Assembly (NCBI GenBank): GCA_020724555.1
Contig: DYGT01000004.1
Coordinates: 9,564 to 73,563, forward strand
From: Candidatus Microgenomatus sp.
GTDB lineage: Bacteria; Patescibacteriota; Microgenomatia; UBA8517
DNA: 64,000 nucleotides
Reading direction: 5' to 3'
Below, piece by piece: positions 15,506-57,313 of the stretch (the first letter of the stretch is position 1; every line of letters starts with the position of its first letter). A model generated the notes under the pieces. The model worked only from the letters and a program-made list of their open reading frames with translations, made no database searches and was not told the DNA's origin. Position numbers and translations under genes: made by a program.

Positions 15506-15526
15506 TATTTTATTATAACGATATAT

Positions 15527-36837: not shown

Positions 36838-38507
36838 TGAATAAATTTAAAAAATACTTAATCTATATAATCTTTTTTGTTATTTTACTCCTTGCTTTTG
36901 TAACGCGTTTTTATAAATTGGGCCAGGCTCCCGCTGGTCTTTATTTAGACGAAGCGGCACAAGGTTACAATGCATATTCAATTTTAAAAACAGGCAAAGA
37001 CGAATTCGGAAAAGGTTTTCCGATAATTTTCAGGTCATTTAATGATTTTAAAACACCTGTTTATATTTATCTGATCACTCCGCTTATACCAATTTTTGGA
37101 TTAACTAAATTTACTGTTCGTTTTCCGTCTTTTCTCTTCAGCCTTTTAACTTTTCCCTACTTATACTTACTTATTAGCAACATCACAAACAAAAAACTTG
37201 CCAAAAAACTGGCATTATTAACATCTCTTTTGCTTGCAATTTCCCCTTGGCATATTTTATTTGGCAGAACGAACTTTGAATGCAATGTTGCCCTATTTTT
37301 CTTCATTGCCGGATCATATTATTTTTTTATTGGTCTTAATAAGCCAAAATATCTGATTTTATCGGCCCTATTTTGGGCACTGGCAATCCCGAGCTACCAT
37401 TCACAACGCATCATAACGCCCATTATGATGCTTGTGCTTTTATTTAAATACAAAAACCAACTTTTAAAAGATGGCTCCCGAAAATACATTTTATACGGCT
37501 GTTTGCTGGGGTTTATAATTTTGCTTCCAACATTGTTAGTTTCATTTACTCCGGGTTTTTTATCCCGGGCTACCACTTTAAATATCTTTAAAACTTCACC
37601 GGTGGGAATTATTGATACCAAAAGCATTTTCTCTTTTATCATTAACAATAAAATTTACCTAAACGTAAGGGAATTTATGTCTTTGTATATATCTTATTTC
37701 TCTCCTATAAATATGTTTGTTTTAGGAGATTACGGTTTGCGAAGTTCTTTTCCTGCTCTTTCAACTTTTTTTGTGTGGCAGGCGCCTTTTTACTTTATCG
37801 GACTGTACTACCTTCTTAAAGATAAAAATCTTGGAAAAATCAGGCACTACACAATAAGTCTGCTTTTAATCGCACCCATTCCGGCTGCCGTCACCCGTGA
37901 TCCGTACACAACAATACGTGCTTTACCTTTAGTTATACCGCAATTAATCGCTATTTCCCTGGGAATCATCTTTGTTTATGAAAAGCTTGCAAAACAATGG
38001 ATTAAAATAGCTGCCATAATTTTATTTTTGTCCACGGTCGGCTACAGCCTTCTTAAGCTATATAGTTCAGTAATAGTCCTTAACGAATATTATCGTGCAC
38101 CGTATTGGAACTATGGCTGGGAAAAAGTCGTTGATTCCATAAAACTACACGCCGGAGAGATGCCGGTGGTCGTGGACGACGCCAGAGGTGAACCATATAG
38201 CCAAATTGTCTTTTTTCTAAAATATGACCCTGAGGATTTTCAGGCCAAAAACACTATAGATTTAAAAAATTACTACACCGACATGAGCAGAAGAAAAAGC
38301 AAAACTATTGGCAATATAGAAACCCGGGGAATCAACTGGGAACACGATTTAAAAAAAGAACAAATTCTGGTTGGGGATTCTCTGGCTATCTCCCGAGAAC
38401 AAATAGAAAGACACAATTTAACTTTATTAGATGAAATTTTATTTCCGGATGGCTCTGTGGCTTTTAGAATAGTTCGCACCAACCAAGAGGCCAAAGACAG
38501 CAATTAA
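36834..38507 (+). CDS. GT39/PMT/ArnT-like GT-C membrane glycosyltransferase, family A paralog A8 (the only plus-strand one)
   Basis: YLDEAAQGYNAYSILKTGKDEFG; FNDFKTPVYIYL; LIAPIPAAVTRDPYTTIRA; C-terminal FPDGSVAFRIV. Confidence 0.75.
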   Translation: MMNKFKKYLIYIIFFVILLLAFVTRFYKLGQAPAGLYLDEAAQGYNAYSILKTGKDEFGKGFPIIFRSFNDFKTPVYIYLITPLIPIFGLTKFTVRFPSFLFSLLTFPYLYLLISNITNKKLAKKLALLTSLLLAISPWHILFGRTNFECNVALFFFIAGSYYFFIGLNKPKYLILSALFWALAIPSYHSQRIITPIMMLVLLFKYKNQLLKDGSRKYILYGCLLGFIILLPTLLVSFTPGFLSRATTLNIFKTSPVGIIDTKSIFSFIINNKIYLNVREFMSLYISYFSPINMFVLGDYGLRSSFPALSTFFVWQAPFYFIGLYYLLKDKNLGKIRHYTISLLLIAPIPAAVTRDPYTTIRALPLVIPQLIAISLGIIFVYEKLAKQWIKIAAIILFLSTVGYSLLKLYSSVIVLNEYYRAPYWNYGWEKVVDSIKLHAGEMPVVVDDARGEPYSQIVFFLKYDPEDFQAKNTIDLKNYYTDMSRRKSKTIGNIETRGINWEHDLKKEQILVGDSLAISREQIERHNLTLLDEILFPDGSVAFRIVRTNQEAKDSN

Positions 38508-40091
38508 AGACACCAAGCTAATGATATCAACCAACGCCCTACTTCTGGTCTCTTTCCACTTTACATAAACTTTGTGTTTGCCGGGGGACAGGAAAAAAGT
38601 GATTTGGCCATAGGGCTCTCCGGGTGTAGTTTTAACTTCAGTTCCGTCTACTTTTGTCACCCAACCTGGGAAATAATACGCCCAGAAGGTGAAAGTCGAA
38701 TCCTTTTCGGCTAACACTTCAAACTCATAGTGGATATCAGAAATTTTCTTGGTTTCAAATATCTGTCCATTTGTAATTTCAGCTTTACTTTCAAAGGGCC
38801 TTTCCGGGCGCTTGTCTGCCCATTTGGGTAAAAGCAAATAATCTTCGCTGTAGTTAGGGTCGTTAAAAAAACGCTCCAAATAATAAGCGTCGGACTTATA
38901 AACAACTTCTGCAGGTCTAAAGTAATTAAAAGTTAATATCAAAGAAAAAGTTATAAAAATTAAGGCAAATATTTTTTCGTTTTTTGTGTTATCTAAAAAT
39001 ATTGCTAAAGAAATAGCAGAAAAAAATCCGGTTAAAAACAAAAGCCTCCAGGGAAACTGGATAAAACCATAAAAAGGTATTACTCTCCAAATGGGATAAG
39101 TCCTTATGTTCATAAACAAAACGCTTATGGCAAAACCGAATATTGTAAGTAAAGCCAATGTCAATTGCTTTGTTTTTTTTCTTTTTAAGAAAATCAAGAT
39201 TCCCAGCGATAAAACGGCAGCCATGTTTACAATCCCTAACTGAAATGAAATCTCGTCCCCGGGTCCCCATACGGAACTGCCATAACCCCAGCTAGGCAAA
39301 AGCAGTTGTTTTATAAAAGGGAAATGGTCAACCAATAAAAAAGGCGTTTTATCTGCCACTAAACCCTGATCCATAAGCGCCGGCAGCCACCAATAAATAG
39401 TGATCAAAGCCGAAGAAAATGCACTAAGAATTAATTTTCCCAAAATCTTTAATCTATCCTTTTGTTTGTAGATTTCGAAAATTGCCAATATCCCCAAAAA
39501 AGGTATTGTTAATACCCACAAATAATTATGCGATAATAAATAAATACTTAAAACAAGGCTGAATATTGAAAAATTTTTGATGTTTGTCTTTCTGATTAGC
39601 CTTACTAAACCCCATGCGACAAGTGGCAAAATTGCAATGATTAATACCTCTCCCATCGCTCCACGCACATATAGTTGTACGGCTCTGTAGGGCGTGTATA
39701 AATACAATAAGGCACCGGCCAGGGATGCTATTTTGTCCATATAAAGTCGCAAAAACCCATACATGCTGTAAAGAGATACAAATATACTTGTAAGAAAAAC
39801 CAATTTAAAAGCCAAGGTGAGACTGCCCAATAACGAGTAATATAAAGCCCCGAGATAAAAAGGAAAAACGTAATAAAAATGGAATAAAGGATATCCCAAA
39901 CCCCAGGTAAAATCCGGCCCTAACCGCGGCGGCAACTGCCCAGCAAAAAAAGCGCGGTACATCTCATAAATATCGGCTAAATGGTGTAGGTCATGGGGCT
40001 CGTAAAATCCGGGTAACAAAAGCGGCAGACCCGCTGGAATCGCACCAAAAGTTAATATTATTAATGGCCAGTATTTTTTTAAGTATTTCAT
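38439..40091 (-). CDS. Polytopic membrane protein, family B paralog B1 (GT-C-like candidate)
   Basis: PGFYEPHDLHHLADIYEMYRAFFAGQLPPRLGPDFTWGLGYP; late FIQFPWRLLFL. 550 aa. Confidence 0.5.
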   Translation of the reverse strand: MKYLKKYWPLIILTFGAIPAGLPLLLPGFYEPHDLHHLADIYEMYRAFFAGQLPPRLGPDFTWGLGYPLFHFYYVFPFYLGALYYSLLGSLTLAFKLVFLTSIFVSLYSMYGFLRLYMDKIASLAGALLYLYTPYRAVQLYVRGAMGEVLIIAILPLVAWGLVRLIRKTNIKNFSIFSLVLSIYLLSHNYLWVLTIPFLGILAIFEIYKQKDRLKILGKLILSAFSSALITIYWWLPALMDQGLVADKTPFLLVDHFPFIKQLLLPSWGYGSSVWGPGDEISFQLGIVNMAAVLSLGILIFLKRKKTKQLTLALLTIFGFAISVLFMNIRTYPIWRVIPFYGFIQFPWRLLFLTGFFSAISLAIFLDNTKNEKIFALIFITFSLILTFNYFRPAEVVYKSDAYYLERFFNDPNYSEDYLLLPKWADKRPERPFESKAEITNGQIFETKKISDIHYEFEVLAEKDSTFTFWAYYFPGWVTKVDGTEVKTTPGEPYGQITFFLSPGKHKVYVKWKETRSRALVDIISLVSLIAVFGLLVGANYSKSHRAIRK

Positions 40092-41750
40092 CTAAGTGTA
40101 GTCAAAAATCTTTTTCTTATTTTTAATCCAAATACCGGAAATTACAACAAAAATAAAGGTAATAATGGTAAAAAGGTCTGCTAACGCTCGAAACCGGGTT
40201 TCTTCAAAAAACCCACGCACCATATATGTACCGGGTTCCAAATTAAGAGAAATTAACCCAAGCTCCCGCGTGGGGATAATTTGCTGTTTTTCATTTTCCA
40301 AATAAACGTTCCATCCCGGGAAATAAATTACCGGAACAGCGATCTCTGCCGCAGTGTAGACTTTTGCGTCAAAAAAGAAATAGTTTGATTTTTTTGTAAA
40401 ATTTAAAGTCTCAGCTTCTCCCGTAAGTACTAAAGCATGGTTTGGTGCCAATGCCTTTGGATTAGTTGAGGCAGTTTTCGGCAAATAATCAAGTACAGCT
40501 GACCCTTGTTGCTTTATTAAGTTTCTGCCCGTTAATTTGCTAATATCCGTTTCATTAGGATAGTGGTGCTCGGCTCTAAAATAGCCGTGATACAAAAGTA
40601 TCGGTACAACCAAAACCATAGCCACAATTGCTTTTGATATTTTGCTATTTAAGACAGAACCCGACACAAAGGACAACAAAAAAATACTTATTCCCAAAAA
40701 ACGCCAGGGAAACTGGACAAACTCCAAAAACGGCAAGCTCTGCCAAATAAAGCTTGAGCGACCGTGTGTCATGAAGGTTGAAAGTGAAACTCCGAGCAAC
40801 AAAACCCAAATTAGGGCAAATTTTGTTTTATCTTTTTTCCAAAATTTTAGCGACAATAATGCAGCCAAAACCGCGGTCAAGCTATGAAACCAGCCAATTT
40901 GAAAAGACATGCCATCCTCCGGTCCAAAAACAGAACCCCCAAACCCCCAGGATCGCTCAAAAAAAAGCTGTTTTAATGAAACGAAGTGTGCATGAAAATC
41001 ATAATATTCATCAATAAATAATTCAGTTTGGATCAAATTGCGCTCAAAAAACGCAGGGAACAAAAAAAAGGCAGACAGACCAAATGCCAATATAAGCGCA
41101 AACCCATAATCAATAAGTAAACTTGCCCTTTTTGTCTTTAGAAATAAATAAGCAGTCCAAATGACGGTAAAAGGCGCAAACATCACTAAAGATATATTGT
41201 GTGTCATAAACAAAAACCCCAAACTAATGCTTGTGTACAAAACATATTTCCAGCGTCTTTTTGTAGAGAGTAAATATAATCCATGCCAAACAAATGGCAA
41301 CAGCATAAGTGCAAAACTTTCAGCCAAGGCTCCACGCACATAGATGTCGAGCGCATGATAGGGCGCATAAACATACAAAAGTGCAGAAAACAGCGCTCCT
41401 CTATTTCCCCAAAATTCACGCGCAAAAATATACATGCCAATGCCCGACCCCAAAAGAGATATTAAAAACAATGCCTTTACGGCAGTAATATAAGACAATG
41501 AAAACTTGACTAAAATAGCGCCCAGATAATAGGGAAAGGCACTGTAATAATTAAACATCGCCTGGCCATAACCCCATGCCATATCTGGTGAATAGCGGCA
41601 CGGTATTTGCCCGTCCATTAAGCATTTATCCATCTGCCAAAGACGCATCACCTGTAAATCATCGTGCATACTGAAATAACCCGGGCGAAGCAAATACCAC
41701 CATGCCGGTATAGTCAATATTAAAAAAATGATTAAATATTTTTTAAACAT
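40092..41750 (-). CDS. Polytopic membrane protein, family B paralog B2 (GT-C-like candidate)
   Basis: PGYFSMHDDLQVMRLWQMDKCLMDGQIPCRYSPDMAWGYGQ; FVQFPWRFLGI. Confidence 0.5.
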   Translation of the reverse strand: MFKKYLIIFLILTIPAWWYLLRPGYFSMHDDLQVMRLWQMDKCLMDGQIPCRYSPDMAWGYGQAMFNYYSAFPYYLGAILVKFSLSYITAVKALFLISLLGSGIGMYIFAREFWGNRGALFSALLYVYAPYHALDIYVRGALAESFALMLLPFVWHGLYLLSTKRRWKYVLYTSISLGFLFMTHNISLVMFAPFTVIWTAYLFLKTKRASLLIDYGFALILAFGLSAFFLFPAFFERNLIQTELFIDEYYDFHAHFVSLKQLFFERSWGFGGSVFGPEDGMSFQIGWFHSLTAVLAALLSLKFWKKDKTKFALIWVLLLGVSLSTFMTHGRSSFIWQSLPFLEFVQFPWRFLGISIFLLSFVSGSVLNSKISKAIVAMVLVVPILLYHGYFRAEHHYPNETDISKLTGRNLIKQQGSAVLDYLPKTASTNPKALAPNHALVLTGEAETLNFTKKSNYFFFDAKVYTAAEIAVPVIYFPGWNVYLENEKQQIIPTRELGLISLNLEPGTYMVRGFFEETRFRALADLFTIITFIFVVISGIWIKNKKKIFDYT

Positions 41751-43395
41751 GTTTAAATTTATACCAATAAAGCACCAAAGCTAATACGCTTGCCACAGTT
41801 AAAGCATTTGCAATTTTGCGGATAGGGGTGTCCACCAATTCCAAATACAAGGCATATTCTCCCCGACCCAGGGTAAAAGAAGGCAAACCAAGCGGGTTAT
41901 CGTAGCTAAATTTTGTTTTTTGCCCGTTAACATAAAGATTTGTCTCCGGAAAATAATATTGCGGTAAACTAATGACGGCACTATCGGATATGACCGAGAT
42001 GTTATAGTTTATCCAGTCCGTACCTCTTTTTTGGGAATTGACTAATAATTGCCCTTGTTCAACAATCGGCCCGTCAGGTGCCTTATCGTTCGGAGGCTCA
42101 GTGGCATAAATCGGTAAATAATCAAAAATGCTTATTGTTTGTTGTTTATCCCAAAGTTCACCTGAAAATTTTTCTTTGTCCGTCATGGCTACTATTTTTT
42201 CCGGTTTAAAAAAAGAAAAATTAAATAACGCCAAAAAAACAACAACCATTGCCAATGGCAGTAACTTTGGCTTTAAATAATCTCCAAATAATCCCGCCAG
42301 CAGCGAAATAAACAAAATGGCTAAAGTTAAAAACCGCCAGGGAAACTGGACAAATGACAATACTGGAAATAACCCCCAAATAAAATTCGAGCGGCTATGA
42401 GTCATAAATATGCTCAAGAAAAAAAGAAATAATACAAAAATAAAAAGCTTCAGATTTTCAGATTTCCTTAAAACAATAAGGGACAAAAGCGAAATAACGG
42501 CAAAAATTATGTGAGCCATGCCTAAACCCAAAAATAACTCATCTTTCGGCCCCAAATCGCTTGTCCCATAACCCCAAAAAGTACGGACAAAAAGCTGGGA
42601 GAGGCTTAAAAAATGCCGCTTATAATCAAAATATCCCATGGTTATAGTATCAATATGTACATATTTTTTCTCAAACCAAGCAGGAAGCAAATAAAAAGCG
42701 GATAGTCCAACTCCCCCAAGCACGGCGCATATTAAATTAAAAATAGATTTTTTAATATTACTTTTGTTTTGTAGCAAAAAATATCCGGCCCAAAGGGCAA
42801 AAAAGGGGGCAGCAATTAAGCTTGTGATATTATGCGTCATCAGCAAAAATGCAAAAAACACGCTTAAACCAAGTGTCGCGTGCTTTTTGTTTTCAATTAC
42901 CCGTTTTGTGTACAAAAATATGAATGGTAAGAAACTCATAGCCCAAAATTCGCCCACAGCACCCCTGACATACATATCTACCGCACGGTAAGGGGCATAC
43001 ACAAAAAACAAAACCGCCAGCATACTTGCCGTTTTATTGAAAAATTCACGCGCCAACAAATACATGCTTATGGCCGATATGGGGATAGTTATAATAAACC
43101 CGACTTTTACGCTGTCGATAATGCTTATTCCTAAAAAAGTTAATGCAGCCATAAAGTAATAAGGCAGAGGACCATAAAAATTAAACTGTGGATAACCGTA
43201 ACCATACCCCATGTCCGGCACCCACCGGCAAGGGATTTGCCCGTCTAAAATACATTTACGCATCTCTAGCGTGCGCATTGCCTGCATGTCGTCGTGCATA
43301 GGAAAATATCCGGGCTTTGCGATACTCCAAAAGGAAGGGAGCAATAGAATTACTAAAATTATAAAAAACAAATTTTTTTTAAGAAGCCTTTTCAT
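41743..43395 (-). CDS. Polytopic membrane protein, family B paralog B3 (GT-C-like candidate)
   Basis: PGYFPMHDDMQAMRTLEMRKCILDGQIPCRWVPDMGYGYGYP; FVQFPWRFLTL. Confidence 0.5.
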   Translation of the reverse strand: MKRLLKKNLFFIILVILLLPSFWSIAKPGYFPMHDDMQAMRTLEMRKCILDGQIPCRWVPDMGYGYGYPQFNFYGPLPYYFMAALTFLGISIIDSVKVGFIITIPISAISMYLLAREFFNKTASMLAVLFFVYAPYRAVDMYVRGAVGEFWAMSFLPFIFLYTKRVIENKKHATLGLSVFFAFLLMTHNITSLIAAPFFALWAGYFLLQNKSNIKKSIFNLICAVLGGVGLSAFYLLPAWFEKKYVHIDTITMGYFDYKRHFLSLSQLFVRTFWGYGTSDLGPKDELFLGLGMAHIIFAVISLLSLIVLRKSENLKLFIFVLFLFFLSIFMTHSRSNFIWGLFPVLSFVQFPWRFLTLAILFISLLAGLFGDYLKPKLLPLAMVVVFLALFNFSFFKPEKIVAMTDKEKFSGELWDKQQTISIFDYLPIYATEPPNDKAPDGPIVEQGQLLVNSQKRGTDWINYNISVISDSAVISLPQYYFPETNLYVNGQKTKFSYDNPLGLPSFTLGRGEYALYLELVDTPIRKIANALTVASVLALVLYWYKFKHV

Positions 43396-44107
43396 ATTTT
43401 CCTTGAATATTCCACCAACGTATCAGCAAAAGGTCACGAAGCGATGTGACAACGGCGTCAAACAATTTCACTTTTGTATCTTTTCGATTCTTCCAGGCAA
43501 CGGGGATTTCTTTAATTTCATACCCATATTTGTGAGCTAAAAACAAGATTTCGGCGTCATATACCCAGCGATTGATCAATGCATGGGAGAAAATATCTTT
43601 GGCAGCAGCCCTTCTAAATCCTTTAAAACCGCAGGTAAAATCTGATAAATTTACGCCCATAATCGTCCTTGTTAAAGTTGTAAATACTTTTCCCATCGAT
43701 TCGCGGGCAATTGGTTGATGAACGACAATATCCGAGCCTTTAGTTCTTCTGGAAGCAATTGCTACATCCGTTGATTTTAGGGCTTCCAAAAAATCTTTTA
43801 CTTTTTTTATATCAACCGACAAGTCTACATCAGAAAAGATTATGTAATGACCCTCTGCTGCCTGCATCCCTTTTTTAAGGGCAGCGCCTTTACCCATGTT
43901 TTTGCCTGATTTTAGTAGCTTTACATTTTTATTTCCATATTTTCTGACGATCGCAGCAGTTTTATCTCTTGAACCATCATCAACTACGATTATTTCCCAG
44001 TTTAGATTTAACTTAGTCAAGTACGCTACACTTCTATCCAAGGTATTTTGGATAATATTTTCTTCGTTATATGCCGGAAATATTAAGGTTAAATCAGGAT
44101 TTTTCAT
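43379..44107 (-). CDS. GT2 polyprenyl-phosphate sugar synthase (DPM1/GtrB-like)
   Basis: LTLIFPAYNEENII; WEIIVVDDGSRDKTAAIV; GKGAALKKGM; SDVDLS. Confidence 0.8.
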   Translation of the reverse strand: MKNPDLTLIFPAYNEENIIQNTLDRSVAYLTKLNLNWEIIVVDDGSRDKTAAIVRKYGNKNVKLLKSGKNMGKGAALKKGMQAAEGHYIIFSDVDLSVDIKKVKDFLEALKSTDVAIASRRTKGSDIVVHQPIARESMGKVFTTLTRTIMGVNLSDFTCGFKGFRRAAAKDIFSHALINRWVYDAEILFLAHKYGYEIKEIPVAWKNRKDTKVKLFDAVVTSLRDLLLIRWWNIQGKYEKAS

Positions 44108-45362
44108 AAATTGCCTTTAGAGATATATAAAAAGAAGAAGCCGCAAATATGCTTCTGACTATACTTTTAACCATAAAAACATCGATATAGTGGGATAGGA
44201 TTTTGTCTAAAGGTTTAGCTTGTAAAATTTTAGGAAATAGCGGGTTAAACAATCCAAATGAAAGTGAGGGTTCAAACAAAAACGTCAAAACCAGCCAGCT
44301 TATAAATATGACCGCCACCAACTCCCACATATAAAAATTATTTTTTACTAAAAACCATATCAGCAGTGGGCTCGCCCACACAAACCATTGGGGGTGAAAA
44401 TGGCTTACGGAAAAAATTAACAACAAGGCGGCCAGATACAATCCGTTTAAAGAAACGCGGTGTCTTTGGTAATAAACTAAAAAATATAATACAAACAATA
44501 AAAGTACAAATGGATAAACCACCTCGGCGGCCGTAACATTAAGCCCCATAAATAGCATTTTTTGGCTTTTGGGAGAAAATAAAACCATGCTGCGGAAAGC
44601 GCTTGAACCTAAAAAAGGCAGGATTGTTATAACAAATGGGGTTAAGCCTAAAAGAATCAGCTTAAATCTTGATAAAAATTTACCCGATAAATAAAAGGCT
44701 GCAAGGGGCAACAACAAAAGCGGATACAATTTATACGCCCCTCCGATTCCCAGACTGACCACCGCTAAGTTAGGCTTCTGTTTTTTAACAAAATAAAGCG
44801 AGAGCACAACAAAAAAAGTGGGCAAAATATCGAGCTGCCCGATCATAAAAGTGGCGTATATCGTCAGCGGATTAAACATCCAAAAAGCAAACGCTTTTAT
44901 TTTTTGTTTTTTATCAGAAAACAAGCTAGAAAGCATAAAGGCTATCCCGATATCAAAAAACAAATATGGTAATTTATAAAACAAGAGGTGGCGATAAAGG
45001 CCCTGATATTCATAAACATTATCCAGATTACTCCAAAGCCATGGAATAAAATTATTATCTGTAAACGGAGCGACTAAGATCCGAAATAACCCAAGCGTAA
45101 AATATGTAAGAGGTGGATAGATAAAAATATCAGAAACCCCGAAATTTAAAACCAAAGGGTGTTCAGGGGGAAGACTTAGCAAGTACTCGTAGATATTAAA
45201 TACGCCCTCGGAAGAAAAAAAATATGCCGTAAAGCTGTGCCCCCAAAGGTCCGGGTGCAGGGTTATAGGCATTAAAATTAGCCTGAGCATTATTCCCAGA
45301 ATAGCCATTTTAAACCACCAAAAATTTTCTGTTTTTTTCATATTTTTAAAGTTTATCATCAT
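44094..45362 (-). CDS. Polytopic membrane protein, family E paralog E2
   Basis: LHPDLWGHSFTAYFFSSEGVFNIYEY. 422 aa, many TM segments. Confidence 0.45.
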   Translation of the reverse strand: MMINFKNMKKTENFWWFKMAILGIMLRLILMPITLHPDLWGHSFTAYFFSSEGVFNIYEYLLSLPPEHPLVLNFGVSDIFIYPPLTYFTLGLFRILVAPFTDNNFIPWLWSNLDNVYEYQGLYRHLLFYKLPYLFFDIGIAFMLSSLFSDKKQKIKAFAFWMFNPLTIYATFMIGQLDILPTFFVVLSLYFVKKQKPNLAVVSLGIGGAYKLYPLLLLPLAAFYLSGKFLSRFKLILLGLTPFVITILPFLGSSAFRSMVLFSPKSQKMLFMGLNVTAAEVVYPFVLLLFVLYFLVYYQRHRVSLNGLYLAALLLIFSVSHFHPQWFVWASPLLIWFLVKNNFYMWELVAVIFISWLVLTFLFEPSLSFGLFNPLFPKILQAKPLDKILSHYIDVFMVKSIVRSIFAASSFYISLKAIYEKS

Positions 45363-47087: not shown

Positions 47088-47894
47088 CTAAGAATTGATT
47101 TTATACTTACCTTGAATTGCATTCAGGCGCACACGAACTAAGTCCCGCAATCCCTGCCATGCGTCTTTTATGGGACTAACTCTTTTTGTATCCTGGTGGT
47201 GCCAAATGACTGGAACTTCCACAACTTTCAAACCAAGCTTTCTTGCTACATAAAGTACTTCCAAATCAAAACCGGCAGTAACGGCAGCACCTTTTGCTTT
47301 TTGTTCTTCACTAAAAATCTTTAAGCGTTTAAAAATTTCCTTTGACGCGTCTTGTTTGAATGCTTTAAAACCACACTGGGTATCTTTAAAGGGCAAACGC
47401 AATATGAGGCTACGAAGGAAAGAAAATCCCCAGGCCATGGCTTTTCGGACCAAAGGAGCTCCCTGCCTTCCTGAACGTACACCAATCACCACATCTGCTC
47501 CTTTTCTGAATTCCGGTATAAACTTATCAAATTCAGGCAAAGGGGTTGCCTGGTCCATATCTGTAAATAAAACAATATCCCCCCTGGCTTCAAGCATACC
47601 GGCAATTACCGTACCGCCTTTACCGCGGTGTGGCTGGGCAGATACACGAAATCCTTTGTGTTTTTTGGCGTAATCTTGTGCCAATTTTAAGGTATTATCT
47701 GTAGACTTATCGTCTACCACCAGCACTTCCCAGGTAAAATTTTGTTTAACTAAATACTGGTTTACACTCTCAAGCGTACCGTTTTTGATATTATCCGCTT
47801 CGTTATATGCGGGTATAACAACGGACAGATAAAGATTTTTTGTGTCTAAAGCCATAGCCTTTATTATTGTAACTTGATTACTTTGTAAAACCAA
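47088..47894 (-). CDS. GT2 polyprenyl-phosphate sugar synthase (DPM1/GtrB-like)
   Basis: LSVVIPAYNEADNI; WEVLVVDDKSTDNT; GKGGTVIAGM; TDMD. Confidence 0.8.
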   Translation of the reverse strand: MVLQSNQVTIIKAMALDTKNLYLSVVIPAYNEADNIKNGTLESVNQYLVKQNFTWEVLVVDDKSTDNTLKLAQDYAKKHKGFRVSAQPHRGKGGTVIAGMLEARGDIVLFTDMDQATPLPEFDKFIPEFRKGADVVIGVRSGRQGAPLVRKAMAWGFSFLRSLILRLPFKDTQCGFKAFKQDASKEIFKRLKIFSEEQKAKGAAVTAGFDLEVLYVARKLGLKVVEVPVIWHHQDTKRVSPIKDAWQGLRDLVRVRLNAIQGKYKINS

Positions 47895-49374
47895 ACATAG
47901 GATCGGTCAAATTTGCATTATTCCCACTGCAGCTTTTTTTGATTTCATCCTCCTTTTTGTGAGAATATTTTTCATAATCCGGCAGGATTAACCCTAGTGC
48001 ACCAAAAGATTTATCAATCCTGTCCACTTTGGTATGGGGAAAGACAATTGTATACACGGGGCTGCCAGAAGATGGCTGGTTGGCGTGCAGATCGTTTAAA
48101 TAAAAAATGTAGCGGTAACCAAGCTCATAACCGGGGTCTACAATGTATGAAACCGAAACACACGGGTAATTATGATCTTCGGCATCTTCGGCAATAAAAG
48201 CGACAACCTCATTTTTCTGTAAATAACCGCTTTTATTTTCCGGATAACGGGAAAAACGGTACAAATTAATAACAACAAACAAGGCAAGAATAAATACAAC
48301 AAAAGTTCTCATGTATCGCGTTAAATAAGCCAAGGCGGCACTTATTCCGAATATCCACACAACCACCATTCCGTTTAAATAATATTCGGATACATTAATC
48401 GCATTTAATGTGAAAAAAGAAACATATAATATTAACCAGATTACTAAAAGAGTCGCAAATCTGGGTTTTATATGCTTTTTAAAAACAGCGTATGTAAATA
48501 ACAAAAGAATAAGTCCATGTGCCCATATGTCCGGTATGTTAAAGACATCACCCCACAACAAATTCCGCGCATTTGTATTTGCAATTTGCATTAATCTGCC
48601 AAAACGAGAAGGTAAAGAAACATCTGCCGCAGAAGTGCCTCCCAATATAATAGCCTGTGTTTGGATAAACCCGTGCCTCAATTCAAAAACAAAATACGGA
48701 AGCATTGGTAAGATAAACGCGGCTAAAAAATAAAAAATGTTTTTAATGGCAATTTTTTGTTTAGATATGATTATTGCCAGAAAAAATAACGGAGCGACAA
48801 TCGCCAGCCCCAGGTTTAAATGCCACACTAAACCAAACAATAACCCGGCAGCGATAAATGCGCTTTTTTGTTTTCTTGCCAATACGAGATGAAGTGTATA
48901 CAGGAACCAAATACTCCAAAGATAAACAGGCATGGTGGGAACGACCTCTCGGTCCGTAAAAATTACAACATACGAAAAGCTGTATATTATGGCACCAATC
49001 AAGCCGGCTTTTCTGTCTATAATTTTTGTAAATACAAAATATATACTAAATACGGATAAAAGACTCAATATAGCGACCAACAAAAGACCGCCGTAAGGCT
49101 GTCCCGCAAAAAGTAGATAAAAAGGAATCAGTAAATAATAAAAAAACGGCCCTATAAATACGCCATGGACAGATGTCTCTTGGCCGATAAGCCTAAGGTG
49201 GCTGTTTTTAACCACATCCAAATAAAACCACGATGCCAAATCCTGATCGTGCCCATAATAATAATATGAAAGCGGCTTATAAACTCTTAAGGCAAAAGCA
49301 GCAATCATTACCACAAAAAAAACGTAATCTATTGGCTTAAGGTTGGAAAAAATATTTTGTAAGTTTTTCTTCAT
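47878..49374 (-). CDS. ArnT-like GT-C membrane glycosyltransferase, family C paralog C2
   Basis: YGHDQDLASWFYLDVVKNSHLRLIGQETSVHGVFIGPFFYYLLIPFYLLF. Confidence 0.55.
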   Translation of the reverse strand: MKKNLQNIFSNLKPIDYVFFVVMIAAFALRVYKPLSYYYYGHDQDLASWFYLDVVKNSHLRLIGQETSVHGVFIGPFFYYLLIPFYLLFAGQPYGGLLLVAILSLLSVFSIYFVFTKIIDRKAGLIGAIIYSFSYVVIFTDREVVPTMPVYLWSIWFLYTLHLVLARKQKSAFIAAGLLFGLVWHLNLGLAIVAPLFFLAIIISKQKIAIKNIFYFLAAFILPMLPYFVFELRHGFIQTQAIILGGTSAADVSLPSRFGRLMQIANTNARNLLWGDVFNIPDIWAHGLILLLFTYAVFKKHIKPRFATLLVIWLILYVSFFTLNAINVSEYYLNGMVVVWIFGISAALAYLTRYMRTFVVFILALFVVINLYRFSRYPENKSGYLQKNEVVAFIAEDAEDHNYPCVSVSYIVDPGYELGYRYIFYLNDLHANQPSSGSPVYTIVFPHTKVDRIDKSFGALGLILPDYEKYSHKKEDEIKKSCSGNNANLTDPMFGFTK

Positions 49375-50284
49375 CTATACCTTTATATTTATATTTATCT
49401 ATGTTTTTCAGGGCTATTTTGCCAGTAAAAAGGTTGATAAGTTTATTTTTGTTTATATTTTTAATTTTTTGTTCATGATAATAATACATTGCAGGCTTAA
49501 TAAAATCACCAGGCTTTGACGTATTAACAAAGCCAAATTTATGTCTAGCCGCCCTTTGCCAAGCCAGATCTTTTGAAAAACCAATACTTCTGAAATATTC
49601 GTAAATATCCCTTAAACTCCCTTTCGTACCAATATTTGTGGCAACATATTCAGCAGCATGCTGATAATATGAGCTTTCTCCGCCGGGACTAAAAAAATCC
49701 TGAACATAAGACGCAAGTCCCTCATCTGTAGGTAAAAAACCAGCTTTAAAACGGATTTTGTTGTATTTTCCATTTATAAAACGCACAATATGAACCATTT
49801 CATGTTTTACCAGACCTTCAATACTTATATAATCAGTAACAATATCTGCACCTATGTAAACCTTATTTTTGCTATAAGCAGGACGTACATTAAAACCGCC
49901 GGTTTTTAAAAATTGGATTTTAAAGTCTATACCAAAAAGCTTTAGGGTTTTTTGTAATTGCTTTTTTAATTTTTCAGTTTCTGTTGACATCCTTTGCGGT
50001 TTTGTTTTTTTAATGTACTTTTCGGCTTCCTTAAGAACCTCGCTGTTTATGTCGGTTTCAAAATATTTTTTTGCCTTACTTTCAATTAATTCATTATCTT
50101 GTGCCTTCATGGCTTTAAAAAGTGCAGACTTTCTGCCCAAATGATCATGCGGAGCATGTTTATTTTGCCAAACATACATAAACACGGGGTTGTATGTTTT
50201 TGAAGCATAAAATTTCTCTTTTTCTGTGTGTAAATTTAATGGAGTAGTTAACCAAATAAGGCTTTTTTTGTTATTCATCTGCAC
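49337..50284 (-). CDS. DUF1704/MATCAP-like putative zinc metallopeptidase (HExxH plus an EGLA-type motif)
   Basis: HEMVH (in VKHEMVHIVRF) followed by TDEGLASYVQD, which resembles the QEGLA signature of DUF1704 proteins. Soluble, 315 aa. Confidence 0.45.
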   Translation of the reverse strand: MQMNNKKSLIWLTTPLNLHTEKEKFYASKTYNPVFMYVWQNKHAPHDHLGRKSALFKAMKAQDNELIESKAKKYFETDINSEVLKEAEKYIKKTKPQRMSTETEKLKKQLQKTLKLFGIDFKIQFLKTGGFNVRPAYSKNKVYIGADIVTDYISIEGLVKHEMVHIVRFINGKYNKIRFKAGFLPTDEGLASYVQDFFSPGGESSYYQHAAEYVATNIGTKGSLRDIYEYFRSIGFSKDLAWQRAARHKFGFVNTSKPGDFIKPAMYYYHEQKIKNINKNKLINLFTGKIALKNIDKYKYKGIDEEKLTKYFFQP

Positions 50285-51830
50285 TTAAACGTATACGTTT
50301 TTCTACTGTTATTCCTCCAAAACGCACTCTTTTTACAACTTTTCCTATTCCATCCTGCCTTTTAAGCCAATTTTCAAGTCTTTCCGGATGTGGAGGATCA
50401 ACCTCATACAAAGTGTATAAAATATTTTCTTGAGTCTCTTTTGAGGGTTTTTCTCCCCTCAAGTTCCCGCGCCAGAGAAACAAATAATCATAGGCATGCG
50501 GAATAACCGGCGGCACGTACACATCCACATTAAAAGGTTTTCCTTTTGCATCTTCATAAACCCAGTCAACCGCCTGAACTTCATTTTTTAGGGCAATCGA
50601 ATGCTCTCCCGTGACCCCGTCTGATATCTTCGCCCAAATTACCGGAATATTATTGTTCAAAACAGCAAATAAAAACAGTAAAACAAATATTTTGCCTGCT
50701 AAATTTTTCCAGGCTCTACCCAAAATAAACGCTACTAAAAGCAAAAAAATCAGATAATATCCGGTGAGATAATAATCATAGATATTTCCATAGTTCCCCT
50801 GAAAAAATAAAAGCCCAAGCATGGGTGAGATGAGAAGAATAACCAAAATTTTAAAGCCGTCATTTTTCCACAGGTCTTTTATATATAAAACGAATAAAAA
50901 CAAAAGGCCAATAAGCAGGCTTACTTCAAAATCGCGCCGCCAATGGAAAAGTTTGTTTGTAAAAACATCATAATAAAAATTTAGTCTTATTCTCAAAACA
51001 TCCCAAAAATTTGCTTTAAAGGTTCCTTTTTCAAATATAAAATTCTTTATATTGCCGATCAGGATGCCGTCATGGCGGATATCAAACAAAATTAACGGTA
51101 GAATTGTCAAAAAAAAGAGAAGTATAGAAACTACCCACGTTTTGCCGTTTGGCAAATTCTTTCTTTGCCAAAATGCGATTAAAAATACCGCGGGAAAATA
51201 AAAAAGTTCTCCACTGGAGCCAAAATGAAAAAGACTCATACCCAAAATTAAAGAAATAGCCGCCCAGAGCCACCGATAACCCTTTGTCACAAAATAAAGG
51301 CAAATCACAAGCAGCATACTTAAAAAAAGCATGGGCGTAGGGTTACTCAACCAACGTGCGGCCATATTAATATAAAAAGAAAAGCTTGCCAGAAAAACCG
51401 CAATTAGGCCGGTTACTCTCGATTGTGCGGAAGCAGCATAAATATACATCACGACAAACGCCAATATAGTCAATATCGACAAAAATATCGCAGGCCACAC
51501 TGGGTTTCCATTGCCTAAAAAGTAAAAAGGAGTAATTAAAAAATAATAAAAAGGTCCTCTGAAGATACCGGCTATTCCAGTTGTTGGCCCCACTAAAAAC
51601 AGCTTACCTTCGTGTAAAAAACGCCAGATAACCATAGCATCCCTGCCTTGGTCAAAATAAAAACCCAGCACCTTGTCAACACGGTAAACCTGCAAAAACA
51701 AACCAATGGCCAAAATGGTGAGCAAAAGAAAATAAATATAAATATTATCTTTAATTTCTTTTTTGATTTTTACATACATCGCACGCAACATTATGAATTT
51801 TCTTAATAGCCCGGTCAAATGGCAGGCCAA
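50271..51830 (-). CDS. ArnT-like GT-C membrane glycosyltransferase, family C paralog C3. The true start is probably an internal Met, which reduces the overlap with the upstream DHH gene.
   Basis: FYFDQGRDAMVIWRFLHEGKLFLVGPTTGIAGIFRGPFYYFL. Confidence 0.55.
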   Translation of the reverse strand: MACHLTGLLRKFIMLRAMYVKIKKEIKDNIYIYFLLLTILAIGLFLQVYRVDKVLGFYFDQGRDAMVIWRFLHEGKLFLVGPTTGIAGIFRGPFYYFLITPFYFLGNGNPVWPAIFLSILTILAFVVMYIYAASAQSRVTGLIAVFLASFSFYINMAARWLSNPTPMLFLSMLLVICLYFVTKGYRWLWAAISLILGMSLFHFGSSGELFYFPAVFLIAFWQRKNLPNGKTWVVSILLFFLTILPLILFDIRHDGILIGNIKNFIFEKGTFKANFWDVLRIRLNFYYDVFTNKLFHWRRDFEVSLLIGLLFLFVLYIKDLWKNDGFKILVILLISPMLGLLFFQGNYGNIYDYYLTGYYLIFLLLVAFILGRAWKNLAGKIFVLLFLFAVLNNNIPVIWAKISDGVTGEHSIALKNEVQAVDWVYEDAKGKPFNVDVYVPPVIPHAYDYLFLWRGNLRGEKPSKETQENILYTLYEVDPPHPERLENWLKRQDGIGKVVKRVRFGGITVEKRIRLSADE

Positions 51831-52749
51831 TCACTTTCCCGGCTGCAGCCCAGCGGTGGCCTCCGCCATCCAACTTTTCAGCTATTTCAGACACATCAAA
51901 ACCGCTTCTGGAACGAAGGCTTACAGATACATAGCCATCATTTTCCTCCACTATCACCATACCAAATTCAGTACCTTTTATGCTTTGAAAAATGATGTCT
52001 GCAATCTCAGATTTACTCCCAACAGGCGAGCCGTATTTCCCAAAAACGTCCCGTCCAATTGCAGACCAGACATAGTTATATTCAGAATTTATCTCTAAAT
52101 TTTCAAGGATCTCACCCCATAGCTTTACTGATTCAAGCTCATAAGACTGGTATAAATTTTTTATAATTTCGTCTTTGTCAGCAAACTCCATTAAATCAAG
52201 CGCCGCCTTAAAAGTTTCCGCATCCGCCTCGGGAAAACGAAAAGCGCCCGTATCCCCAATAATTCCGGTTAAAAGGGGAGTTGCAACCTCACTGCCCTTT
52301 ATATCAATATCCCAGTCTTTAAATAAATTGATAAGGAGCTGGCATGTGGCTGCGATACCGGGATCTAGCAAATTTAAATCTCCAAACTGTGTATTGGTTT
52401 TGTGGTGATCGATTACCACCATTTTAATCATTGGTCGTTTAACATCGGAATCTGCAGCCACCCTTTGCCAGCTTGATGAATCCAAACAAATCAGCAAATC
52501 CCACTCAAAAAAATTGAAATCGCGAAAAATAATTTTGTCAATCGCACCAAACTTTTCTAAAAATTTTAGGTTTCTGGGTATTTCATCCGGACAAATCACT
52601 TTAACTTCTTTTCCCCAGCCCAATAGAACCTGCCGCAATGCTTGAGCACTGCCGACACTGTCTGCATCCGGCCGGCTATGGCAATTCAATAGAATCCTGT
52701 CCGCCTCTTTAATTAATTTAAGTATTTCTGACGATTCTGGATAATTCAT
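51751..52749 (-). CDS. DHH-family phosphoesterase (NrnA-like nanoRNase/pAp phosphatase)
   Basis: HSRPDADSVGSA; VIDHHKTN (DHH motif); GGGHRWAAAG (DHHA1 motif). Confidence 0.85.
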   Translation of the reverse strand: MNYPESSEILKLIKEADRILLNCHSRPDADSVGSAQALRQVLLGWGKEVKVICPDEIPRNLKFLEKFGAIDKIIFRDFNFFEWDLLICLDSSSWQRVAADSDVKRPMIKMVVIDHHKTNTQFGDLNLLDPGIAATCQLLINLFKDWDIDIKGSEVATPLLTGIIGDTGAFRFPEADAETFKAALDLMEFADKDEIIKNLYQSYELESVKLWGEILENLEINSEYNYVWSAIGRDVFGKYGSPVGSKSEIADIIFQSIKGTEFGMVIVEENDGYVSVSLRSRSGFDVSEIAEKLDGGGHRWAAAGKVIGLPFDRAIKKIHNVACDVCKNQKRN

Positions 52750-56449: not shown

Positions 56450-57313
56450 TTACTGTATACGAAGCCCAAGCCGCTGATTGACTAAAGCCACCTGTGTTTG
56501 AGCAACTTTGCCACCCATAAGCTTTTGGCGGTACACATTTACGATTTCATAAACACCGCTTCTTAGCTTCCCGGCGTTGGCTAATTGGGCAATTTCAGCA
56601 AAACTCAAAAACCTATACTCCTTCATGCGGAAACTCGAAAAGCCTTGTGTTCCAGCAATTTCAACCGGTATTTCCAGATGGTAAATAAAAAGCGAAATAT
56701 CCAGTATTTTTATTTTAAAAATCAAATCAAGGTCTTTGTCCGAAATTTTTACGGGGACTACGCCATTGACTGCATTTTTGGAAAAAACCTCTTGCTGAAG
56801 TACACGCATCGCGGAAATCGTTTTATTTTCTCCCTTTTTGGAAAAAGTCATGGGGATGCTGATGGCGCCTCTTTTTTTACCATAAACAAAATTCGGCATG
56901 GAAATGTCTCTGGCTGTTAAAATTTTTTGGGCTTCATTTTTAACGGTTATAACCAGACCGGTAGCGGCACGCCTGGTAATGTCTTGCTTTATGTGGTTAT
57001 AAATCCTGTGCAAGGTAATTTTGGAGGTTTGAAAACTCGGGGGAAGTTTTTTATAAAGCTCTTCTAATGGCAGTTTTTCTTCTGCCAAATACTCCATAAA
57101 CGCCAATGCTTCGCTCATTTTTCCATGAGGACCCGCGGCTTTTACGATATTGTTTTTGTCCAGAAGCCTATGATACGAAGCCGGTGAAATAGGCAAAGCG
57201 TAATAATGTTTTTTTAAAACTGCGTCAACAGAACCATATTTTAAATACTGGGAAATTAAAAATTTATTAAAATCTTCCTCTTTTTTGCGGGGATCTATAT
57301 TCATCATGAACAA
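56450..57313 (-). CDS. Hypothetical soluble protein (287 aa)
   Basis: Long ORF with no recognisable motif. Only the ORF itself supports it. Confidence 0.4.
   Translation of the reverse strand: MFMMNIDPRKKEEDFNKFLISQYLKYGSVDAVLKKHYYALPISPASYHRLLDKNNIVKAAGPHGKMSEALAFMEYLAEEKLPLEELYKKLPPSFQTSKITLHRIYNHIKQDITRRAATGLVITVKNEAQKILTARDISMPNFVYGKKRGAISIPMTFSKKGENKTISAMRVLQQEVFSKNAVNGVVPVKISDKDLDLIFKIKILDISLFIYHLEIPVEIAGTQGFSSFRMKEYRFLSFAEIAQLANAGKLRSGVYEIVNVYRQKLMGGKVAQTQVALVNQRLGLRIQ

What the first reader, a model, noticed from the sequence alone, without database searches (positions are those of the whole stretch)
49337..50284. DUF1704/MATCAP-like HExxH protein embedded in the glycosyltransferase operon
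The soluble 315-aa protein contains HEMVH. About 25 residues downstream it has TDEGLASYVQD, which resembles the QEGLA motif defining DUF1704. The eukaryotic member MATCAP is a tubulin tyrosine carboxypeptidase. Bacterial members are uncharacterised. Its start overlaps the upstream family C gene by 38 nt, so it is co-translated with the glycosylation genes. A peptidase here could process the protein acceptors or the enzymes.
Basis: partly seen in the sequence, partly recalled or inferred. Interest (0 to 1): 0.55.

Follow-up and report, generated by a model that had tools for sequence, protein, structure and literature searches.

The report
Compact bacterial MATCAP-family metallopeptidase gene
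This gene encodes a small cytoplasmic zinc-type peptidase related to the human tubulin-trimming enzyme MATCAP; it belongs to a little-annotated branch found in tiny-genome bacteria, and its position among sugar-transferase genes looks like a lineage-specific gene order rather than proof of a shared job.

Summary
The ORF is real: window 49337-50284 on the minus strand, 315 aa (313 aa from the ATG at 50278), with no predicted transmembrane segment. HEMVH lies at residues 161-165 and TDEGLASYVQD at 186-196.

The family assignment holds.
- Pfam PF08014 scores 28.4 bits against a 27-bit cutoff.
- A 27-sequence profile hits human MATCAP at E 2.9e-17.
- An AlphaFold model (pLDDT 93.9) has MATCAP as its only strong PDB match (TM 0.68).
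- H161, H165 and E188 are invariant. E162 aligns with the catalytic E281 of MATCAP.

The protein belongs to a compact subfamily of about 100 sequences. The named source genomes are Patescibacteria. In this subfamily the family's HExxxH motif is shortened to HExxH.

The 38-nt overlap is at the gene's 3' end, over the start of the downstream GT-C gene, not at its own start.

The GT-C flanking is conserved only in the window's own clade (47-85% identity). Across 34 other loci it is not enriched.

The recurrent informative partner is an ATP-grasp ligase: gene fusions in the wider family, and adjacent 7TM-transglutaminase plus ATP-grasp genes in some subfamily members. None lies in this window.

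Most likely it is an active carboxypeptidase-type hydrolase whose substrate is unknown.

The parts
49337..50284 (-). CDS of the MATCAP/DUF1704-family protein: 315 aa from GTG 50284, or 313 aa from ATG 50278
   Evidence: ORF list and translation. The start region was read. P0001 (99% identical, 313 aa) starts at the ATG. Pfam PF08014 hit.
50174..50245 (-). N-terminal family motif TPLNLHTEKEKFYASKTYNPVFMY (residues 14-37)
   Evidence: P15, N17, E21, Y31 and P33 are invariant in the subfamily. The stretch aligns with MATCAP 'RPTNMDRERDKFFQSHYTYNPQFEY' and with canonical bacterial members.
49790..49804 (-). HEMVH (residues 161-165): two predicted metal-binding His and the predicted catalytic Glu
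   Evidence: H161 and H165 are invariant and E162 is conserved in at least 90%. The motif aligns with MATCAP H280-E281-x3-H285 with a one-residue gap. E281 is required for activity (PMC10499314, PMC13269789).
49697..49729 (-). TDEGLASYVQD (residues 186-196); E188 is the predicted third metal ligand
   Evidence: E188, G189 and A191 are invariant. The motif aligns with MATCAP P-T-E-E316-G-L-A. The 'EEG' motif is named as the third ligand in PMC10499314.
49484..49561 (-). Conserved basic block WQRAARHKFGFVNTSKPGDFIKPAMY (residues 242-267), inferred to be the substrate/carboxylate-binding region
   Evidence: W242, R244, R247, K249, G251, T255, G259 and K263 are invariant. R247, K249, G251, T255, P258, G259, K263 and Y267 align with identical residues in MATCAP 'RAKRGQTDTSLPGCFSKDQVY'. 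The functional role is an inference.
49337..49374 (-). 38-nt overlap between the 3' end of this CDS and the start of the downstream GT-C gene
   Evidence: Read directly. Comparable overlaps of 38-53 nt occur in relatives L037, L040 and L042.
50271..50284 (-). Overlap of this CDS start with the stop of the upstream GT-C-like gene (14 nt from GTG, 8 nt from ATG)
   Evidence: Overlaps of 8-14 nt occur in L037, L040 and L042.
47878..49374 (-). Downstream neighbour: GT-C-type membrane glycosyltransferase (PMT_2), 498 aa, 9 predicted TM segments
   Evidence: Pfam PF13231 at E 1e-9. TM count.
50271..51830 (-). Upstream neighbour: GT-C-like membrane protein, 519 aa as listed, 9 predicted TM segments
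   Evidence: Pfam PMT_2 at 23 bits, below the cutoff. TM count. Orthologues in relatives are called at 502-507 aa.
51751..52749 (-). DHH/DHHA1 phosphoesterase gene embedded in the same gene string; it serves as a control for guilt by association
   Evidence: Pfam DHH at 5.8e-15 and DHHA1 at 5.9e-10. The same position is kept in L037, L040 and L042.

Best explanation
The gene encodes a cytoplasmic, probably active, metal-dependent hydrolase of the MATCAP/DUF1704 family (gluzincin type).

Inferred mechanism: H161, H165 and E188 hold a divalent metal. E162 activates the water. A conserved basic block (R247, K249, K263, Y267, shared with MATCAP) holds the substrate's free carboxylate, so that C-terminal residue(s) are trimmed from a peptide or protein tail.

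It belongs to a distinct compact clade (about 310-320 aa). The named source genomes of this clade are Patescibacteria/CPR. In this clade the family's extended HExxxH is shortened to the classical HExxH, and the distance from the first His to the EGLA motif is 26-27 residues instead of about 32.

At family level the natural partner is an ATP-grasp amino-acid ligase of the RloC/'sugar-transfer-associated' type. The likely ancestral role is therefore to undo or limit ligase-added C-terminal residues, paralleling the TTL/TTLL versus MATCAP relationship in eukaryotes.

In this genome the gene sits alone inside a roughly 60-kb glycosyltransferase block. It is tightly overlapped with GT-C genes on both sides, so co-transcription is likely. 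That placement is a gene order specific to its own clade and does not by itself show a role in glycosylation.

Shown: the ORF, the motifs, the homology, the fold, the conservation and the contexts. Inferred: activity, carboxypeptidase chemistry, cytoplasmic location and the relation to a ligase. Unknown: the substrate.
For: Homology and fold:
- PF08014 at 28.4 bits against a 27-bit cutoff.
- phmmer against the PDB: MATCAP 7z5g at E 4.5e-7.
- The 27-sequence profile A1 hits MATCAP at E 2.9e-17, including the N-terminal motif.
- hhalign of A1 against 22 canonical bacterial members: probability 100%, E 1.7e-60, 309 aligned columns.
- AF2 model pLDDT 93.9, pTM 0.92. Foldseek against the PDB gives MATCAP at E 4.5e-9 and TM 0.68/0.65. 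The next hit, an M32 carboxypeptidase, is at E 8e-3 and TM 0.21.

Active site:
- Invariant residues are H161, H165, E188, G189, A191, R247, K249, K263 and others.
- They align with MATCAP H280, E281, H285, E316, R373, K375 and K389.
- E281 mutants are inactive and the EEG Glu is the third ligand (PMC10499314).

Subfamily:
- Among 199 full-length relatives, 98 have HExxH with spacing 26-27. These are the strongest hits (down to about E 1e-55).
- 96 have HExxxH with spacing of about 32.
- In a rough neighbour-joining tree (no support values) the compact clade groups together apart from three canonical outgroup sequences.

Partner evidence:
- ATPgrasp_ST + MATCAP-domain fusions of 786-805 aa: P0141, P0145, P0169.
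- 7TM_transglut + ATPgrasp_ST directly upstream of HExxH-subfamily genes in L010, L046 and L047. A double ATP-grasp lies upstream in L012.
- Eukaryotic TMCPs also remove ligase-added polyglutamate (PMC10499314).

Location and context:
- No predicted TM segment. The protein is basic: K+R 55 against D+E 32.
- Clade-specific synteny GT2-GTC-DHH-GTC-target-GTC-GT2 is seen in L037-L042.
Against: - No enzymatic data exist for any bacterial family member.
- The Pfam score is marginal. Only 11 of 27 subfamily members hit PF08014 at E<=0.01. NCBIfam, which I recall includes the QEGLA model TIGR02421, gave no family hit.
- The hallmark HExxxH is not present.
- No ATP-grasp gene lies in the 64-kb window (tblastn). 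ATP-grasp adjacency was seen in only 4 of about 40 subfamily loci, which fall in two clades.
- A few members have Asp in place of the catalytic Glu: L011 has HDLVH and P0057 has HD.
- I could not inspect the model coordinates to verify metal-site geometry.
- Tight overlaps with GT-C genes conserved down to 47% identity could reflect a real functional link that this explanation downplays.
Confidence: 0.6

Rival explanations
1. The peptidase is a dedicated accessory of the surrounding glycosylation machinery. It would trim the C-terminus of a protein acceptor or of a GT-C/GT2 enzyme, or remove an amino acid from a lipid-linked glycan intermediate, on the cytoplasmic side.
For: - Overlapping reading frames with GT-C genes on both sides.
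- The same order and overlaps are kept in relatives down to 47% identity.
- A second, separate clade (L028/L029) has a PMT_2 gene starting 4 nt after the stop.
- The Woesebacteria-type clade has GT2-GT2-Wzy_C within four genes.
- The family's ATP-grasp partner is the Pfam family named 'sugar-transfer associated'.
Against: - There is no enrichment of GT-C-like neighbours outside the window's clade: 1 of 62 adjacent, and 7 of 120 within two genes against 11 of 384 further away, p = 0.16.
- GT2 is more frequent among distant genes (10 of 140) than among near ones.
- 24 of 52 ORFs in the window are GT-C-like, so adjacency is expected by position alone.
- A DHH/DHHA1 gene is embedded in the same way.
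- Many subfamily members sit in unrelated housekeeping contexts.
- In the Woesebacteria-type clade the target gene is flanked by opposite-strand genes.
Confidence: 0.2
2. It is a general cytoplasmic carboxypeptidase that scavenges peptides, supplying amino acids to an auxotrophic small-genome bacterium. It would have no dedicated partner or pathway.
For: - The subfamily is widespread in small-genome MAGs with highly variable neighbours.
- Aminoacyl-tRNA synthetase genes are adjacent in several loci: L014, L023, L024, L017 and L021.
- There is no partner gene in the window.
Against: - The wider family shows specific ATP-grasp fusions and operons.
- Characterised eukaryotic members are substrate-specific tail-trimming enzymes (PMC10499314).
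- The strong conservation of many surface basic residues suggests a defined acidic substrate. This point is an inference.
Confidence: 0.15
3. It is a catalytically dead pseudo-enzyme, retained as a binding or scaffold protein, or it is a spurious ORF.
For: - The canonical HExxxH is altered.
- The Pfam score is marginal.
- Some members carry HDxxH.
Against: - All predicted metal ligands and the catalytic Glu are conserved across about 100 homologues.
- HExxH is the standard zincin motif (PMC10499314).
- The fold is predicted with confidence.
- The ORF is conserved at 36-99% identity in many assemblies.
Confidence: 0.04

Closest known systems
Human MATCAP1/TMCP1 (KIAA0895L; PDB 7Z5G, 7Z5H, 7Z6S) and TMCP2 (KIAA0895)
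   Same: - Same fold over the whole chain (Foldseek TM 0.68).
- Same N-terminal P-x-N...E..KFF...YNPxF.Y motif.
- Same catalytic Glu and both His, the same third-ligand Glu in (E/D)EGLA, and the same R-x-K-x-G..DTS.PG..K...Y block.
   Different: - Only 18-19% identity.
- The motif is HExxH here against HExxxH there.
- The His-to-Glu loop is about 5 residues shorter.
- The alignments cover only the catalytic domain of the 471-aa MATCAP chain, so the window protein has no counterpart to the parts of MATCAP outside it.
- The subfamily-invariant H209 and E212 correspond to Ala and Leu in MATCAP.
- No tubulin substrate is expected in a bacterium (from general knowledge; not searched here).
[quoted passage not shown]
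   Same: Homologous over 309 columns (hhalign probability 100%). Same ligand set and the same conserved blocks. Also uncharacterised biochemically.
   Different: - Canonical members are about 350-380 aa with HEIxxH and a spacing of about 32.
- The window protein gave no NCBIfam family hit.
- Canonical members include ATPgrasp_ST fusions. No such fusion was seen in the compact clade.
ATP-grasp ligase plus peptidase modules: RloABC and RimK-RimB of Pseudomonas (PMC11957051)
   Same: Some HExxH-subfamily genes sit directly after RloB-like (7TM_transglut) and RloC-like (ATPgrasp_ST) genes (L010, L046, L047). This is a ligase-plus-hydrolase arrangement.
   Different: - In Rlo/Rim the peptidase is a retropepsin-like aspartic protease, not a zincin.
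- The window has neither an RloB-like nor an RloC-like gene.
M32 (Taq-type) HExxH metallocarboxypeptidases, e.g. FisCP 5E3X and BsuCP 3HQ2
   Same: They are gluzincin-type HExxH carboxypeptidases, and they are the next-best structural hits.
   Different: The similarity is only marginal (E 8e-3 to 0.3, TM 0.2-0.3) and the proteins are about 500 aa. The window protein is not a member.

Membership tests
Pfam PF08014 (MATCAP / DUF1704) | Whole-protein score at or above the curated gathering score (27 bits) | tested here: met
   28.4 bits, E 1e-6, covering residues 92-297. The margin is small: only 11 of 27 subfamily members match at E<=0.01.
Pfam PF08014 (MATCAP / DUF1704) | Profile-level homology to characterised or canonical members | tested here: met
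   The A1 profile hits MATCAP 7z5g at E 2.9e-17. hhalign of A1 against canonical bacterial members gives probability 100%, E 1.7e-60.
Pfam PF08014 (MATCAP / DUF1704) | MATCAP catalytic-domain fold | tested here: met
   AF2 pLDDT 93.9. The Foldseek top five hits are all MATCAP chains, E 4.5e-9 to 2.1e-8, TM 0.67-0.68.
Pfam PF08014 (MATCAP / DUF1704) | Extended HExxxH metal-binding motif (PMC10499314; I also recall it from the TIGR02421 description) | tested here: not met
   The motif is HEMVH (HExxH). A one-residue gap appears in every alignment. All 98 compact-clade members have HExxH, while 96 other family members have HExxxH.
Pfam PF08014 (MATCAP / DUF1704) | Third-ligand Glu in the (Q/E)EGLA motif | tested here: met
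   D187-E188-G-L-A. E188, G189 and A191 are invariant. The motif aligns with MATCAP E315-E316-G-L-A.
Pfam PF08014 (MATCAP / DUF1704) | Metal-dependent carboxypeptidase activity | not testable with these tools
   This needs biochemistry. It is shown only for eukaryotic TMCP1/2 (PMC10499314).
NCBIfam TIGR02421 (QEGLA-motif protein; accession recalled from memory) | Match to the NCBIfam model | tested here: not met
   The NCBIfam scan at E<=10 returned only an irrelevant sigma-70 hit at E 0.074.
RloB/RloC-type ATP-grasp module with an associated peptidase | Adjacent 7TM_transglut and ATPgrasp_ST genes | tested here: not met
   tblastn of L010/L012/P0141 ATP-grasp and 7TM queries against the window found nothing better than E 0.1. 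The feature is met in relatives L010, L046 and L047.
Component of the GT-C/GT2 glycosylation gene cluster | Co-directional and overlapping with GT genes in this genome | tested here: met
   Overlaps of 38 nt (3' end) and 8-14 nt (5' end). Neighbours annotated.
Component of the GT-C/GT2 glycosylation gene cluster | Association with GT-C genes conserved across independent lineages | tested here: not met
   The association is kept only in the window's clade plus L028/L029. Elsewhere there is no enrichment.

The most novel reading that the evidence does not exclude
In this lineage the compact HExxH MATCAP-family enzyme has been recruited as a cytoplasmic editing step of the giant GT-C/GT2 glycosylation system. 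For example, it could trim the C-terminal tail of an acceptor protein or a GT-C enzyme, or hydrolyse an amino acid amide-linked to a lipid-linked glycan. That would be the first pathway assignment for any bacterial MATCAP homologue and a new type of accessory for bacterial GT-C glycosylation.
Probability: 0.12. Interest if true: 0.65.

Novelty: new member of a known kind. Interest (0 to 1): 0.3.

Why it matters
Bacterial MATCAP/DUF1704 proteins have no known function. The eukaryotic members were only recently shown to be tubulin detyrosinases and deglutamylases.

This gene represents a compact clade of roughly 100 sequences, mostly annotated as 'hypothetical'. The named source genomes are Patescibacteria. 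The clade carries a classical HExxH instead of the family's HExxxH. It is small and predicted to fold confidently, which should make it a convenient target for biochemistry.

At family level, fusion to or adjacency with ATP-grasp ligases suggests a bacterial ligase/peptidase pair analogous to TTL/TTLL versus MATCAP. That pairing would be the more interesting thread to follow.

For the question actually posed, a peptidase serving the glycosylation operon, the evidence is weak, so the finding is mostly an annotation improvement.

Tried and rejected
- Plus-strand translation of the given coordinates is full of stops. The gene is on the minus strand.
- NCBIfam scan: no family hit.
- Exact-sequence look-up of the window protein in public assemblies: not on record.
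- phmmer of all window proteins against neighbours in 36 related loci gave only scattered weak GT2 or methyltransferase hits. I therefore used Pfam counts on near and far neighbour sets and a hydropathy proxy for GT-C.
- tblastn for ATP-grasp and 7TM-transglutaminase genes in the window: nothing.
- tRNA scan of the window, as a clue to taxonomy: none found.
- Cluster-member look-up for source names: nine of ten clusters unnamed, and the tenth (P0073) is named only 'hypothetical protein' / 'Uncharacterized protein'.
- Literature: 'DUF1704' returns one irrelevant paper. The Landskron 2022 Science paper is not held. A QEGLA search gave only a Photobacterium transcriptome table, in which the QEGLA protein (RS17025) and a glutathione synthase gene with the adjacent locus-tag number (RS17020) are both listed.
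- M32 carboxypeptidase membership is rejected on weak structural scores.
- The pseudo-enzyme reading is rejected on ligand conservation.
Full report
**1. The observation**

The coordinates 49337-50284 hold an ORF, but on the minus strand. The plus-strand translation is full of stops. The six-frame list gives 49337..50284 (-), 315 aa, with a GTG start.

An ATG two codons downstream (50278) is the start used by the 99%-identical metagenomic protein P0001, which is 313 aa.

HEMVH is residues 161-165 (window 49790-49804). TDEGLASYVQD is residues 186-196 (49697-49729). A hydropathy scan finds no transmembrane segment. The protein is basic, with K+R 55 against D+E 32.

Positions 49337-49374 are the 3' end of this gene overlapping the ATG of the downstream GT-C gene (47878-49374). 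At the 5' end the gene overlaps the stop of the upstream GT-C-like gene (50271-51830) by 14 nt from the GTG, or 8 nt from the ATG.

**2. Family assignment**

- Pfam gives a single hit, PF08014 (MATCAP, formerly DUF1704): 28.4 bits against a 27-bit gathering score, E 1e-6. On its own this is marginal.
- phmmer against PDB sequences finds only human MATCAP (KIAA0895L; 7z5g, 7z6s) at E 4.5e-7.
- A database search returned 79 close homologues of 36-99% identity, all about 304-330 aa. Three distant PF08014 proteins came in at E of about 1e-8.
- A 27-sequence alignment (A1) has mean column identity of 51%. Its profile hits MATCAP at E 2.9e-17, including the N-terminal P-x-N...E..KFF...YNPxF.Y motif.
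- hhalign of A1 against 22 canonical bacterial members (A4) gives probability 100%, E 1.7e-60, over 309 columns.
- An AlphaFold2 model built from A1 has pLDDT 93.9 and pTM 0.92. Its only strong PDB matches are MATCAP chains (E 4.5e-9, TM 0.68/0.65). The next hit, an M32 carboxypeptidase, is at E 8e-3 and TM 0.21.

**3. Catalytic residues**

H161, H165, E188, G189 and A191 are invariant in A1, and E162 is conserved in at least 90% of sequences.

In the HMMER alignment H161/E162/H165 pair with MATCAP H280/E281/H285, and E188 pairs with E316 of 'EEGLA'.

E281A and E281Q mutants are catalytically dead, and the 'EEG' Glu is the proposed third metal ligand (PMC10499314; PMC13269789).

A second block, R247-x-K249-x-G...T255-S-x-P-G...K263...Y267, is shared with MATCAP 'RAKRGQTDTSLPGCFSKDQVY'. 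I infer that it holds the substrate carboxylate.

By this reading the protein has everything expected of an active enzyme. Rare members carry HDxxH: L011 and P0057.

**4. How it differs from the family**

MATCAP and canonical bacterial members carry HExxxH, for example HEIGTH in P0080-P0082. PMC10499314 describes this as an unusual extension of the gluzincin HExxH. The window protein has HExxH, and every alignment places a one-residue gap inside the motif.

Among 199 full-length relatives:
- 98 have HExxH with a spacing of 26-27 from the first His to EGLA.
- 96 have HExxxH with a spacing of about 32.
- 3 have HExxH with a spacing of 31.

The HExxH, short-spacing group corresponds to the strongest hits of an exhaustive profile search: the full-length members score E<1e-74 and fragments reach about E 1e-55. 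That search found 1,318 representatives at E<=1e-3 and 64 at E<=1e-30. In a rough neighbour-joining tree, which has no support values, this group sits together, apart from three canonical outgroup sequences.

Related loci come from MAGs. Where the names are informative they are Microgenomates, Woesebacteria, Dojkabacteria, Saccharibacteria and Kerfeldbacteria. Others carry 'Pseudomonadales' or 'Gammaproteobacteria' labels that I did not verify.

No source gives any member a functional name.

**5. Context in the window**

The window is essentially one glycosylation block of about 60 kb on the minus strand.
- 24 of 52 ORFs are at least 350 aa with at least 7 predicted TM segments. Several of them hit PMT_2, PMT or YfhO.
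- They are interleaved with GT2, GT4, methyltransferase, SDR and nucleotidyl-transferase genes.
- Among the ORFs scanned between about 1.4 and 56 kb, the only genes with a Pfam annotation unrelated to glycosylation are this one and a DHH/DHHA1 phosphoesterase (51751-52749). A few ORFs there had no Pfam hit.

With this density of GT genes, being flanked by GT-C genes carries little information.

**6. Context elsewhere**

Close relatives (P0002 at 85%, P0004 at 50%, P0006 at 47%) keep the order GT2-GTC-DHH-GTC-target-GTC-GT2, with the same short overlaps. They form one clade with the window protein.

In 34 loci from other clades (35-46% identity) the neighbours differ. Pfam counts on 119 genes within two positions of the target are led by:
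- methyltransferases (11)
- Ig-like surface proteins (10)
- HAD hydrolases (6)
- Wzy_C (5)
- radical SAM (4)
- ATP-grasp (3)

PMT_2 and GT2 are not in the top 25 families for the near set. By contrast, 10 of 140 genes at five or more positions away are GT2.

With the hydropathy proxy, large multi-TM neighbours are 1 of 62 at distance 1. Within two genes they are 7 of 120, against 11 of 384 further out (Fisher p = 0.16).

One separate clade (L028/L029) has a PMT_2 gene immediately downstream. Other loci show unrelated housekeeping neighbours.

GT-C adjacency is therefore specific to particular clades and is not a property of the family.

**7. The informative association**

- In the wider family, proteins of 786-805 aa fuse an N-terminal ATPgrasp_ST domain to a C-terminal MATCAP domain: P0141, P0145 and P0169. 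P0169 also has weak Asp-protease-like and TTL-like signals.
- Within the HExxH subfamily, L010, L046 and L047 have 7TM_transglut followed by ATPgrasp_ST directly upstream and co-oriented. L010 and L046 add a second subfamily copy. In L046 a RimK/R2K ATP-grasp gene and an Acetyltransf_6 gene are also annotated; L010 has ORFs of the same sizes at the same positions, which I did not annotate.
- L012 has an 831-aa double ATP-grasp directly upstream.

The 7TM-transglutaminase/ATP-grasp pair is the RloB/RloC pair of Pseudomonas. There it works genetically with a secreted retropepsin and affects envelope-related phenotypes (PMC11957051). Eukaryotic TMCPs remove residues added by the ATP-grasp ligases TTL and TTLL, including polyglutamate (PMC10499314).

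The best family-level inference is a hydrolase that counteracts an ATP-grasp amino-acid ligase. The window itself contains no such ligase, and the rest of the genome could not be examined.

**8. Verdict**

The operon embedding is real for this clade. The proposed link to glycosylation has no support beyond that synteny.

The gene is a new member of a known but functionally uncharacterised bacterial family. It sits in a distinct compact HExxH subclade.

- Best explanation: an active cytoplasmic carboxypeptidase-type hydrolase with an unknown substrate, confidence about 0.6.
- Glycosylation accessory: about 0.2.
- General peptide scavenger: about 0.15.
- Pseudo-enzyme: about 0.04.
- Interest: 0.3.

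Noticed in passing
window 1-60205, mostly minus strand: A glycosylation supercluster of about 60 kb. 24 of 52 ORFs are large proteins with at least 7 predicted TM segments (GT-C-like: PMT_2, PMT, YfhO). They include tandem runs of paralogues of about 550 aa (8919-17206 and 38439-43395), interleaved with GT2, GT4, methyltransferase, SDR and nucleotidyl-transferase genes.
   Followed up: partly
window 51751-52749 (-): A DHH/DHHA1 phosphoesterase gene (I take it to be NrnA-like) lies between two GT-C genes with overlapping ends. The position is conserved in relatives L037, L040 and L042. No obvious link to glycosylation.
   Followed up: partly
P0141, P0145, P0169 and about a dozen other 769-814-aa proteins: Single polypeptides fuse an ATPgrasp_ST ligase domain to a MATCAP-family peptidase domain. 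P0169 also shows weak TTL-family and Asp-protease-like signals. This is a possible bacterial counterpart of the tubulin ligase/carboxypeptidase pairing.
   Followed up: partly
L010:7084-13216 and L046:1819-7980: A module with the gene order 7TM_transglut - ATPgrasp_ST - HExxH MATCAP-like - a 288-aa gene on the opposite strand - a second MATCAP-like copy - a gene of about 325 aa - ... MutS. In L046 the 288-aa gene is a RimK/R2K ATP-grasp and the following gene is Acetyltransf_6, which I take to be FemAB-like. The matching L010 ORFs were not annotated.
   Followed up: partly
L011:5384-13580: The gene order is mirror-symmetric around position ~9,190, with two identical-looking HDLVH copies on opposite strands. 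This is either an inverted duplication or an assembly hairpin artefact. These copies carry Asp instead of the catalytic Glu.
   Followed up: no
L003, L005, L008-L013, L025, L031-L034 (record titles): Many MAG contigs that carry this subfamily are labelled 'uncultured Pseudomonadales/Gammaproteobacteria' in TPA assemblies. Their gene content resembles the Woesebacteria- and Dojkabacteria-labelled loci, so the taxonomic labels look unreliable.
   Followed up: no
window 56450-57313 (-) and 44094-45362 (-): Two ORFs have no Pfam hit. One is a 287-aa soluble protein next to a GT2+GtrA gene; genes of similar size (277-298 aa) at the corresponding position in L037-L042 also have no Pfam hit. The other is a 422-aa protein with 7 predicted TM segments.
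   Followed up: no
window 50271-51830 (-): The listed TTG start would overlap the DHH gene by 80 nt. Orthologues are called at 502-507 aa, or 474 aa in L042, so the true start is probably further downstream.
   Followed up: no
L002-L005, L011, L016, L019, L022, L025: One clade shows a recurrent neighbourhood: GT2 - GT2 - Wzy_C, then an Ig-like/Glucodextran_B protein on the opposite strand, the MATCAP-like gene, a methyltransferase on the opposite strand, and a radical-SAM gene.
   Followed up: partly
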